Shown: one piece after another, positions 36,334-38,217 of the stretch
How positions within the stretch are numbered: the stretch's first letter is position 1
How the letters are laid out: each line of letters begins with the position of its first letter
From: an uncultured Gammaproteobacteria bacterium
Lineage (GTDB): Bacteria > Patescibacteriota > Patescibacteriia > Patescibacteriales > BS150m-G62
Reading direction: 5' to 3'
Length of the DNA: 64,000 bases
Assembly: GCA_964569045.1 (NCBI GenBank)
Contig: CAZMSR010000003.1
Span: 23,492 to 87,491, forward strand
The notes under the pieces: model-generated
The model's input: the letters and a program-made list of their open reading frames with translations, nothing else
Database searches by the model: none
What the model was told of the DNA's origin: nothing
Made by a program: the position numbers and the translations under genes

Positions 36334-38217
36334 TTGTCTATGGCAAGAGTTTTTTCTTTACAAAATGACCTTTATTGGCTAAATTTATTACACAATTATT
36401 TTTATAAAAAATATGGAAAAAAAAATGAAAGGAGTGATTTTGGCGGGGGGGGTGGAACAAGGCTTTATCCTAATACTAAAGTAACTAATAAGCATCTTTT
36501 ACCGGTTTATAATCAGCCAATGATTTATTACCCAATTAATACTTTAATGCGAGCCGGTATTGAAGATATTTTAATATTACCAGGCAAAGATCATGCTGGT
36601 GATTTTGCAAAATTGTTAGGGTCTGGTATAGATTTTAATGTAAATTTTAGTTTTAAAGTTCAGGATCATGCCGGAGGTTTAGCTTATGCAGTGGGATTAG
36701 CTAAGGAGTTTGTTGGAAATGATAATTTTGTAGTAATTTTAGGGGATAATATTTTAGGGGATAATATTTTAGGGGATGTGCAGGATTTTGCGGGTGGAGC
36801 TAAGATTTTTTTAAAAAAAGTGTCTGACCCTGAACGTTTTGGTGTGGCAGAGCTTGATGGTAATAAAGTACTCTCTATAGAGGAAAAGCCAATTAAGCCA
36901 AAAAGTTCTTGGGCGGCAATAGGGGTTTATATATATGATTCAAAAGCTTTTAGTTATATTAAAGATTTAAAGCCATCTGATAGAGGTGAACTAGAAATAA
37001 CTGATTTAAATAATGTTTATATGAAAAATGGTAAGTTAGAGGCTGGATTTATTAAAGGTTATTGGTTTGATACAGGGACTCATGAGAGCTTAGTTGAGGC
37101 AGCTCATTCTTTAAAGATTGTTGAGCGTCCAATTGAGCAATTGCGACTTGAACAAAAAAATGCACCAAAAGTAATTATTGGAAGTATACTTTATAATGAT
37201 AAAGATAATTTTTATAGAACTGATCATTATTTGCCTTATTATGTAAAAAGTATAAAATCTCAGAATTATAATAATGTTGAGCTTATTTTTATTGATAATT
37301 CAGGCTTGGAAGATAATCCTAATACAGTTTATTTGAAAAATAATTATCCGAAAATAAAAGTAATATATAATAAAGAAAACTCTGGTTTTGCTAAGGCGAA
37401 TAATAAGATGATAGATGAGGCGCGAAAAATGGGTGCGGATTATTTTATAGCTAGTAACGTTGATATGGTGTATGAAGTTAATGTAGTTTCTGAGTTAGTA
37501 AGTACTGCAATGAAAACTCCGCAAATAGCAAGTGCAACTTGTAAGATAAAGCGTTGGGATTATAATAAAGTTAAAGAAGGTGGAGATGGTAAGACAAATT
37601 ATATTGATACTGCAGGATTAGCTATTACTCGTGAACATAGGTTTATCAATAGGGGTGAAGCAGAAGTAGACTATGGTCAATTTGATCAAGAGGAGGAAGT
37701 ATTTGGAGCCTCAGGAGCTGCTGTTATTTATAGAATCTCAGCGCTTGAAGATGTTGCTTTTAAAAATGAGGATGGTCACAAGGAATATTATGATGAATTA
37801 ATGTTTATGTACAAGGAAGATGTTGATTTATCTTATAGGCTTCAGTTGGCTGGTTATAAATGTAATTATACTCCAAATGCTACTATATATCACGATAGAA
37901 CAGTGCATATTAAGCCAAGGGGTATTATTAATATTATTAGGTCGCGTATTGGTCGAAATAAAAAGTATAAAGAATGGTCTTGGCTTAATCATCATATAAT
38001 TTTACAAAAAATGCTTAGAGGTAATTCTCTGGATGTAAAATTGTCAACATTTTGGTATGAAATTAAAACTTTAATTTATATTTTAATTTTTGAACCTTAT
38101 TTGTTAAAACAAATTTGGGAATTATATAGGTTGCGTGATAAAATAAATAAGCGTAGAGAGCAAATTAAAAAAAGAGTAAAAATTAAAACACATATTGAGA
38201 GGATAATGATTGAGTGA
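36334..38217 (+). CDS. glucose-1-phosphate thymidylyltransferase (RmlA) fused to a GT2 glycosyltransferase; N-terminus out of frame at a G8 tract
   Basis: GGGGTRLYP...[13 protein letters not shown] RmlA motifs, then a GT2 domain ([32 protein letters not shown]). The natural-looking ATG at 36435 (MKGVILAGG) is in a different frame and joins the main frame only if the tract at 36455-36462 is 9 G. The listed start is a TTG without an RBS. Confidence 0.7.
   Translation: [627 protein letters not shown]
36455..36462. repeat. G8 homopolymer tract at the 5' end of the rmlA-GT2 coding region
   Basis: Sits between the candidate ATG start and the conserved G-loop. Its length sets the reading frame. 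Confidence 0.9.

What the first reader, a model, noticed from the sequence alone, without database searches (positions are those of the whole stretch)
36423..36470. G8 tract puts the rmlA-GT2 fusion gene out of frame: candidate phase-variation switch
The natural-looking start ATG-AAA-GGA-GTG-ATT-TTG-GCG (MKGVILAGG...) runs into GGGGGGGG at 36455-36462. With 8 G it terminates after about 20 codons. With 9 G it reads [16 protein letters not shown], matching the RmlA G-loop consensus (ILAGGSGTRLYP), and continues through the whole 627-aa RmlA-GT2 protein. As assembled, the long ORF can only start at a TTG with no RBS, and it lacks the first beta-strand of the nucleotidyltransferase fold. Homopolymeric G tracts are rare in a ~30% GC genome. 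They are the classic slipped-strand switches that phase-vary surface-glycan genes in Campylobacter, Haemophilus and Neisseria.
Basis: partly seen in the sequence, partly recalled or inferred. Interest (0 to 1): 0.65.

Follow-up and report, generated by a model that had tools for sequence, protein, structure and literature searches.

The report
Variable G8/G9 tract in rmlA-GT2 gene
A run of eight G's breaks the reading frame of a sugar-activation/glycosyltransferase gene in an uncultured Patescibacteria genome, and otherwise identical assemblies from other samples carry nine G's and an intact gene, so this looks like a slipped-strand on/off switch for a rhamnose surface glycan, though no reads were available to confirm it.

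Summary
The G8 run is at 36445-36452. It follows ATG 36425 (a second in-frame ATG is at 36413). With G8 the frame stops after 19 codons. With G9 it reads [16 protein letters not shown]... through a 597/601-aa RmlA-like + GT2 fusion, which is a conserved Patescibacteria family.

New evidence comes from independent assemblies of the same population. G9 appears in JGI 3300009008, JGI 3300007511, ENA SAMN10231914 and Logan SRR8062320. G8 appears in the window, ENA SAMN10231924, JGI 3300007755 and an NCBI record. These contigs match the window at every other base over 7.8-21.8 kb. None of the 26 other homopolymers of 8 nt or more in that stretch varies, including a second G8. Several further assemblies break at or near the tract.

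Orthologues at 73-81% identity encode the same AGGGGT loop without a homopolymer, so the tract is species-specific. G8 runs at this Gly loop also recur in frame in unrelated rmlA genes, so the tract could have arisen as a by-product of the motif.

Best reading: a real hypermutable tract acting as an ON (G9) / OFF (G8) switch. It is a new member of a known kind. An artefact, or a non-adaptive hotspot, is not excluded without reads.

The parts
36445..36452 (+). Poly-G tract (G8 in this window, G9 in other assemblies of the same population). It is the proposed slipped-strand switch and lies in the Gly-rich GGxGTR loop codons of the RmlA-like domain.
   Evidence: for sequence and frames. for G8 versus G9 being the only difference between assemblies.
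36413..36484 (+). Truncated OFF-state reading frame: ATG 36413 or 36425 through the G8 tract to TAA at 36482-36484 (23 or 19 codons).
   Evidence: Orthologue N-termini read M(xKK)MKGVILAGG.
36453..38217 (+). Body of the RmlA-like nucleotidyltransferase + GT2 glycosyltransferase fusion gene. It is in frame with the start only when the tract is G9 (or G6/G12), giving a 597/601-aa product.
   Evidence: One search finds more than 100 full-length homologues of about 600 aa in Patescibacteria. P0001 is the exact 601-aa G9 product.
36331..36358 (+). Terminator-like hairpin plus U-run after the HAD hydrolase gene. It overlaps the TTG 36334 and ATG 36340 starts of the 627/625-aa ORF, so that N-terminal extension is probably not translated.
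   Evidence: pattern scan. (dG -8.9 kcal/mol, z -3.35).
36357..36385 (+). Promoter-like site TTTACA-17-TAAATT upstream of the natural start. This is a consensus match only.
   Evidence: Such matches are not above chance in this AT-rich DNA (26 found, 25.3 expected).
32941..35511 (+). RmlC-RmlB fusion (563 aa) and RmlD (291 aa). These are the rest of the dTDP-L-rhamnose pathway, whose first step is supplied by the switched gene.
   Evidence: rmlC, dTDP-glucose 4,6-dehydratase and rmlD all score above NCBIfam cut-offs..
38713..42427 (+). Downstream glycan genes: three GT2 glycosyltransferases with weak rhamnosyltransferase-family similarity, and GalU (307 aa). GalU is not a second RmlA.

Best explanation
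The G tract at 36445-36452 is a real, hypermutable homopolymer in the first 15 codons of the rmlA-like/GT2 fusion gene of an uncultured Patescibacteria (CPR) bacterium.

Mechanism (inferred): slipped-strand mispairing during replication adds or removes one G. G9 is the ON state, giving a 597/601-aa enzyme with the AGGGGTRL nucleotide-binding loop. G8 is the OFF state, giving a 19-23 residue peptide; any product started downstream lacks strand beta-1 or the G-loop.

The fused N-terminal domain is the only RmlA-like enzyme in a locus that also encodes RmlC-RmlB and RmlD. OFF should therefore stop both dTDP-L-rhamnose supply and the attached GT2 transferase, removing or altering a rhamnose-containing surface glycan.

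Shown: the frame consequences; the G8/G9 polymorphism between samples on an otherwise identical background; the domain assignments.

Inferred: the slippage mechanism, reversibility, the phenotype, and any adaptive value such as phage or host-attachment bet-hedging.
For: 1. Frame logic and a perfect N-terminal match of the G9 product to the family.

2. G9 alleles: L001 (JGI 3300009008), L011/L014 (JGI 3300007511), L106 (ENA SAMN10231914), L168 (Logan SRR8062320). G8 alleles: the window, L002 (ENA SAMN10231924), L013 (JGI 3300007755), and an NCBI record carrying P0121. Each of the JGI, ENA and Logan pipelines gives both states in different samples; for Logan the G8 case is a unitig that ends at the tract.

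3. L001 and L106 differ from the window by that single G over 20,876 and 21,794 bases, with 0 mismatches.

4. Internal controls: 26 other homopolymers of 8-9 nt in the compared stretch are invariant, including the second G8 at 32780, which is G8 in all 8 contigs that cover it.

5. At least five other assemblies break at or within 70 nt of the tract. Logan unitigs stop after G8 (L009) and after G9 (L008). This is as expected if several lengths coexist in a sample.

6. The tract is built from rare codons, whereas orthologues encode the same AGGGGT with mixed codons.

7. In C. jejuni, G8 tracts switch at 1e-4 to 1.6e-3 per division with a bias towards insertion to G9 (PMC8355987).
Against: - No reads were available, so within-sample heterogeneity and the true error rate at this tract are unknown.
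- Several JGI, ENA and Logan assemblies may derive from the same libraries, so the number of independent observations is smaller than the number of contigs (at least two per allele).
- Only two lengths were seen. No G7 or G10 products are on record.
- The tract is absent from the closest orthologues.
- No other coding poly-G/C tract exists in the 64 kb, whereas classical phase-variable genomes carry many.
- In-frame G8 runs at this same loop occur in 54 unrelated rmlA genes, so the tract may be a neutral by-product of the motif.
- The other G8 in the locus does not vary, so G8 is not automatically unstable in this organism.
- Poly-G is a known trouble spot for Illumina chemistry (own knowledge).
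Confidence: 0.55

Rival explanations
1. Technical artefact. The genome is uniformly G9 and the gene is constitutive. G8 arises from polymerase or sequencer slippage at the poly-G run and from the assembler's choice of path.
For: - Poly-G runs are error-prone, and many assemblies break at this spot.
- The only difference between contigs lies at a homopolymer.
- Frameshifted tract lengths are also seen in unrelated metagenomic rmlA genes: L144 and L154, where G7 would be in frame.
- An ENA contig of this population carries a 1-nt deletion in lysS, so indel errors or variants do occur in these assemblies.
Against: - A systematic error should give the same consensus everywhere. Instead the same pipeline yields G8 in one sample and G9 in another (ENA SAMN10231924 versus SAMN10231914; JGI 3300007755 versus 3300009008 and 3300007511).
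- The second G8 tract and 25 A/T runs of 8-9 nt never differ and never break contigs.
- The long contigs of 52-91 kb imply good coverage, where minority stutter should not flip a consensus. That last step is inference.
Confidence: 0.2
2. A real polymorphism but not a switch. The Gly-loop codons happen to form a mutational hotspot, and the G8 allele is a recent loss-of-function (incipient pseudogene) that is drifting or being tolerated. There is no adaptive or regular reversal.
For: - G runs at the RmlA G-loop arise repeatedly as a by-product of GGG codons (54 in-frame cases).
- The tract is not conserved in orthologues.
- It is the only such coding tract in the window.
- About 1-2 such tracts per Mb are expected from codon usage alone (my estimate).
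Against: - The OFF allele is the consensus in about half of the assemblies, yet the gene shows no second lesion and the backgrounds are identical over 21 kb. A null allele at such frequency with no divergence implies very recent or recurrent change, which is what a hypermutable switch produces.
- The family is strongly conserved across Patescibacteria, so permanent loss is likely to be costly.
Confidence: 0.2
3. The G8 allele is still expressed. A -1 ribosomal slip on G GGG GGG, or RNA-polymerase slippage on the G run, restores the frame in a fraction of products, so G8 means 'low' rather than 'off'.
For: G GGG GGG formally fits the X XXY YYZ slippery pattern. Homopolymer transcriptional slippage that rescues frameshifts is known in endosymbionts. 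Both points are from my own knowledge and were not tested here.
Against: No stimulatory structure lies downstream: the 96 nt from the start fold no better than shuffles (z +0.39). G9 DNA alleles exist, so recoding is not needed to explain the gene.
Confidence: 0.05

Closest known systems
Poly-G/C contingency loci in surface-glycan genes of Campylobacter jejuni (capsule, LOS and flagellar glycosylation genes)
   Same: An intragenic G8-G9 tract near the 5' end of a glycan biosynthesis gene in an AT-rich (about 30% GC) genome. A one-base length change toggles the frame. G8 and G9 are the lengths seen, as in C. jejuni, where G8 is biased to gain a G (PMC8355987).
   Different: C. jejuni carries about 20-30 such tracts per genome and lacks functional mismatch repair. 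Here only one coding tract is seen in 64 kb, and the repair status is unknown. Switching rate and reversibility are unmeasured. The organism is an uncultured environmental Patescibacteria bacterium, not a host-adapted pathogen.
Neisseria poly-G phase-variable glycosyltransferases (lgtA/C/D, pgtA)
   Same: A homopolymeric G run inside a glycosyltransferase ORF switches a surface glycan structure on and off (pgtA: PMC2193922, listed).
   Different: In Neisseria the tract is often present in some strains and absent in others, and this correlates with lifestyle. Here it sits in the catalytic Gly loop of a fused nucleotidyltransferase domain, so it controls sugar-nucleotide supply as well as transfer.
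Homopolymer-tract frameshift variation in Mycobacterium tuberculosis (for example glpK) and other bacteria
   Same: A single coding homopolymer of 7-9 nt gives reversible loss of function, detected as length polymorphism among otherwise near-identical genomes (PMC10334774 and bioRxiv 10.1101/717272, listed).
   Different: Those cases were validated with isolates and phenotypes. Here there are only metagenome consensus sequences.
RmlA (glucose-1-phosphate thymidylyltransferase) - GT2 fusion proteins of Patescibacteria
   Same: The G9 product is 100% identical to P0001. It is 47-81% identical over its full length to more than 100 proteins of about 600 aa from Patescibacteria-type MAGs.
   Different: None as a protein. 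Only this species encodes the AGGGGT loop as a homopolymer. The NT domain scores below the NCBIfam rmlA equivalog cut-off (260.9 versus 360.65), so its thymidylyltransferase specificity is inferred.

Membership tests
SSR-mediated phase-variable (contingency) gene | Simple sequence repeat inside the ORF or promoter, long enough to be hypermutable (G/C of about 7-8 or more) | tested here: met
   G8 at 36445-36452, starting 21 nt after ATG 36425. The length threshold is taken from the C. jejuni literature.
SSR-mediated phase-variable (contingency) gene | A change of one repeat unit toggles between a full-length and a truncated product | tested here: met
   G8 gives 19 aa. G9 gives 597/601 aa that match the family from residue 1.
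SSR-mediated phase-variable (contingency) gene | Tract-length polymorphism within one strain or population while the flanks stay identical | tested here: met
   G8 and G9 consensus alleles occur in different samples with 0 other differences over 20.9-21.8 kb. This is at assembly level only, not read level.
SSR-mediated phase-variable (contingency) gene | Heterogeneity of tract length within a single population sample | tested here: inconclusive
   Contigs break at the tract in at least five assemblies. Logan unitigs end after G8 or G9. This is suggestive, but coverage loss or sequencing error could do the same. No reads were available.
SSR-mediated phase-variable (contingency) gene | High-frequency, reversible switching (about 1e-5 to 1e-2 per division) | not testable with these tools
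   Needs cultures, time series or single-cell data.
SSR-mediated phase-variable (contingency) gene | Tract maintained by selection (conserved across related strains or species, or several such loci per genome) | tested here: not met
   Orthologues at 81, 77 and 73% identity use mixed Gly codons. The only other G/C run of 7 nt or more in the 64 kb is intergenic and invariant.
RmlA / glucose-1-phosphate thymidylyltransferase | NTP_transferase fold with an N-terminal G-G-x-G-T-R-L loop, scoring above the family cut-off | tested here: inconclusive
   Pfam PF00483 matches at 2.8e-56, end to end. TIGR01207 rmlA scores 260.9 bits against a cut-off of 360.65, and rmlA_long scores 217 against 320. It is the best-matching family but below equivalog level, partly because the C-terminal part of the model is replaced by the fusion.
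RmlA / glucose-1-phosphate thymidylyltransferase | Genomic association with rmlB, rmlC and rmlD | tested here: met
   RmlC-RmlB fusion and RmlD lie immediately upstream and all score above cut-off. The other NTP transferase in the locus is GalU.

The most novel reading that the evidence does not exclude
An environmental, probably episymbiotic Patescibacteria bacterium uses a classical poly-G contingency switch to turn its whole rhamnose-glycan pathway on and off. ON- and OFF-dominated populations would alternate between water samples, for example in response to phage pressure or host attachment. This would extend SSR phase variation, so far described almost only in host-adapted pathogens and commensals, to the Candidate Phyla Radiation. 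It would also show that such switching can be read directly from metagenome series.
Probability: 0.45. Interest if true: 0.6.

Novelty: new member of a known kind. Interest (0 to 1): 0.45.

Why it matters
If the G8/G9 polymorphism is real switching, it is a first concrete candidate for SSR-mediated phase variation of a surface glycan in Patescibacteria. A full-text search found no paper on the topic. These organisms live attached to host cells and are exposed to phages, so stochastic on/off control of a rhamnose glycan would bear on how they manage attachment and phage receptors.

There is also a practical point. The public protein record for this gene (625 aa, P0121) is a mis-called frameshifted ORF. 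Its N-terminal extension runs through a terminator. The functional product is the 597/601-aa form.

Tried and rejected
1. An exact 30-nt flank search of metagenome contigs found nothing. That collection does not hold these samples, so no wider census was possible there.

3. A look-up of the 565-aa product expected from G7 or G10 alleles found nothing on record. A homology search with the 44-aa G9-specific upstream ORF returned only the G9 form. There is therefore no evidence for lengths other than 8 and 9.

4. The second G8 at 32780 as a promoter-spacer switch for rmlCB: rejected as unsupported. It lies upstream of a strong terminator-like hairpin (32814-32841) and is invariant in all contigs.

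5. An invertible segment to explain the recurrent contig ends at 36378 and 36468: by eye I saw only a 6-nt direct repeat (CTTTAT) and no inverted repeats. No repeat search was run.

6. The 625/627-aa ORF as a real protein: rejected. Its starts lie inside the terminator hairpin, the extension has no homologues, and beta-1 is lost.

7. Rfam found only three tRNAs in the window.

8. The sample accessions could not be linked to a paper. The study codes hint at a single marine series, but I could not confirm the source.

Full report
OBSERVATION

The window reads ...GGAAAAAAAAATGAAAGGAGTGATTTTGGCGGGGGGGGTGGAACAAGGC.... The ATG is at 36425, and a further in-frame ATG lies at 36413.

I translated the gene with different tract lengths. 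G8 gives [19 protein letters not shown] and then a stop. G9 gives [37 protein letters not shown]... and stays open for 597 aa (601 aa from ATG 36413). G6 and G12 are also in frame.

The G9 product matches Pfam NTP_transferase from profile position 1 (residues 2-229, E 2.8e-56), followed by Glycos_transf_2 at residues 264-381. Its best NCBIfam families are rmlA and rmlA_long, both below the equivalog cut-offs.

The ORF as assembled (627 aa from TTG 36334, 625 aa from ATG 36340) begins inside a hairpin, CUCUUGUC-UAU-GGCAAGAG, followed by U6. This hairpin follows the HAD-hydrolase gene (dG -8.9 kcal/mol, z -3.35). The extension has no homologue outside this species. It is therefore an artefact of the frameshift and not a real N-terminus.

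IS THE TRACT UNUSUAL?

The window is 30% G+C. Only two G/C runs of 7 nt or more exist, both G8: this one and one at 32780-32787. Markov models of order 1-4 predict 0.06-0.24 such runs. Two or more appeared in 3% of order-3 simulations, and that model is inflated by the tracts themselves.

GGG makes up 14% of Gly codons and GCG 8% of Ala codons. The four other tri-glycine motifs in the window use mixed codons. From these frequencies I estimate roughly one or two coding G8 runs per megabase by chance. The tract is therefore uncommon, but not impossible as an accident.

WHAT THE GENE IS

The G9 product is identical to a JGI protein (P0001). It is 47-81% identical over its full length to more than a hundred proteins of about 600 aa. 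Where these are named, the names are Patescibacteria, Falkowbacteria, Kuenenbacteria, Uhrbacteria, Peregrinibacteria or Gracilibacteria. The fusion is thus a conserved CPR family and is not itself novel.

Upstream lie an RmlC-RmlB fusion and RmlD, all above NCBIfam cut-offs. Downstream lie three GT2 enzymes with weak rhamnosyltransferase similarity, and GalU. The fused N-terminal domain is the only RmlA-like enzyme in the locus. Its loss should therefore block dTDP-L-rhamnose synthesis as well as the attached transferase. This is an inference from the known Rml pathway.

THE KEY TEST: TRACT LENGTH IN INDEPENDENT ASSEMBLIES

I looked up exact copies of neighbouring proteins and retrieved many contigs of the same population from JGI, ENA, NCBI and Logan.

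Contigs that cross the tract:
- G9: L001 (JGI 3300009008), L011/L014 (JGI 3300007511), L106 (ENA SAMN10231914), L168 (Logan SRR8062320).
- G8: the window, L002/L012/L015 (ENA SAMN10231924), L013 (JGI 3300007755, found in 3 samples), and an NCBI record carrying P0121.

L001 and L106 match the window at every base over 20,876 and 21,794 positions except for the one extra G. That stretch holds 27 homopolymers of 8-9 nt, and only this one differs. The second G8 at 32780 is G8 in all eight contigs that cover it.

The same pipeline gives different lengths in different samples, so the assembler is not the cause. Both alleles sit on the same haplotype.

Other assemblies break here:
- L004 stops at 36444.
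- L003, L005, L006 and L010 stop at 36378.
- L017 and L018 restart at 36468, and L016 restarts at 36455.
- Logan unitigs L008 and L009 end after G9 and G8 respectively.

The contigs L003-L006 all carry one SNP (33128 A>G), so a second haplotype is present in those samples. Breaks of this kind are expected if several tract lengths coexist in a sample, but they could also reflect poor read quality at the tract.

No products expected from G7 or G10 alleles are on record.

ORTHOLOGUES AND BACKGROUND

The closest orthologues encode the same AGGGGT loop without a homopolymer:
- 81% identity: GCC GGA GGG GGC GGC.
- 77% identity: GCT GGA GGT GGA GGA.
- 73% identity: GCA GGT GGT GGT GGA.

The tract is therefore species-specific. 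It was built by synonymous changes towards G in an AT-rich genome.

A degenerate DNA search for K-G-[V/I]-I-L-A followed by eight or more G's found 60 metagenomic contigs. Of these, 54 carry an in-frame G8 that encodes A-G-G-A-G-T, mostly in GC-richer genomes. Two (L144, L154) have G8 or G9 where G7 would be in frame. So G runs at this glycine loop arise repeatedly as a by-product of the motif, and frame-breaking lengths at such runs occur elsewhere in assemblies. This tempers the argument that the tract was selected for switching.

INTERPRETATION

The simplest account of all the data is a real hypermutable G run, G9 = ON and G8 = OFF, changing by slipped-strand mispairing.

It behaves like the G8/G9 tracts of Campylobacter jejuni glycan genes. 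Those switch at 1e-4 to 1.6e-3 per division, with G8 biased towards gaining a G (PMC8355987).

The OFF allele is the consensus in about half of the assemblies. It shows no second lesion in the gene and no divergence in the flanks. This fits recurrent or recent switching better than a decaying pseudogene.

Three features argue against a generic sequencing artefact: the invariant control tracts, the sample-specific consensus within one pipeline, and the long high-coverage contigs. Without reads I still leave about 0.2 for that explanation. I leave a similar weight for a real but non-adaptive hotspot.

Leaky expression of G8 through a -1 slip on G GGG GGG is conceivable, but no downstream structure supports it (z +0.39).

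NOVELTY

Poly-G switching of glycan genes is textbook biology in Campylobacter, Neisseria, Haemophilus and Helicobacter. Single-tract reversible frameshifts are documented in Mycobacterium (papers listed).

A full-text search found no paper linking Patescibacteria with phase variation on this topic. This is a new member of a known kind, supported by cross-sample metagenomic evidence but not by read-level or experimental data.

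Noticed in passing
window 32780-32787 (context 32652-32940): A second G8 run lies in the unusually long 289-nt spacer between the NUDIX gene and the rmlC-rmlB fusion. The region 32760-32860 folds far better than shuffles (dG -25.5, z -4.8) and ends in a strong terminator-like hairpin at 32814-32841 plus a T-run. This suggests a small RNA or a structured 3'UTR. 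The tract is G8 in all 8 assemblies that cover it. Rfam has no match.
   Followed up: partly
window 36736-36777: A perfect 15-nt tandem repeat (ATTTTAGGGGATAAT, 2.8 copies) lies inside the same rmlA-GT2 gene and encodes [14 protein letters not shown]. Orthologues have the same length but diverged copies (GDNILEDNIVED). It is an in-frame repeat that could also slip, but it is identical in all contigs.
   Followed up: partly
window 36379-36467; L003-L006, L010, L017, L018: Four assemblies end at exactly 36378 and two restart at exactly 36468. The upstream contigs L003-L006 all carry the SNP 33128 A>G. What this haplotype carries across the promoter, start codon and G-tract segment is unknown. 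It could be a longer or more heterogeneous tract.
   Followed up: partly
L103 6892-6900: The contig of the 81%-identical orthologue has a G9 run 86 nt downstream of its rmlA-GT2 stop, inside a 99-aa ORF of unknown function near the contig end. This may be a poly-G tract at a different place in a sister species' glycan locus.
   Followed up: no
L144 1347-1371 and L154 12007-12031: Two unrelated metagenomic rmlA genes have G8 and G9 where G7 would give the in-frame A-G-G-S-G-T-R-L loop. These are analogous frameshifts at the same loop in other organisms. In contrast, 54 other contigs carry an in-frame G8 coding A-G-G-A-G-T.
   Followed up: partly
window 12677-12750 (- strand): A tRNA-Ile with anticodon UAU (tat), which is an uncommon way for bacteria to read AUA.
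   Followed up: no
window 32941-34632: RmlC (epimerase) and RmlB (4,6-dehydratase) are fused in one 563-aa protein, and both halves score above NCBIfam cut-offs. Together with the RmlA-GT2 fusion, the four-step rhamnose pathway is packed into three genes.
   Followed up: partly
L003 (window 27737): One ENA assembly has a 1-nt deletion in lysS, not in a homopolymer, that splits lysyl-tRNA synthetase into 352 + 114 aa. This is probably an assembly error. It is a reminder that indels occur in these assemblies.
   Followed up: partly
window 38278-38652 (- strand): A 124-aa ORF with no Pfam hit sits on the opposite strand between the rmlA-GT2 gene and the next GT2. It is called as a gene in all assemblies.
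   Followed up: no
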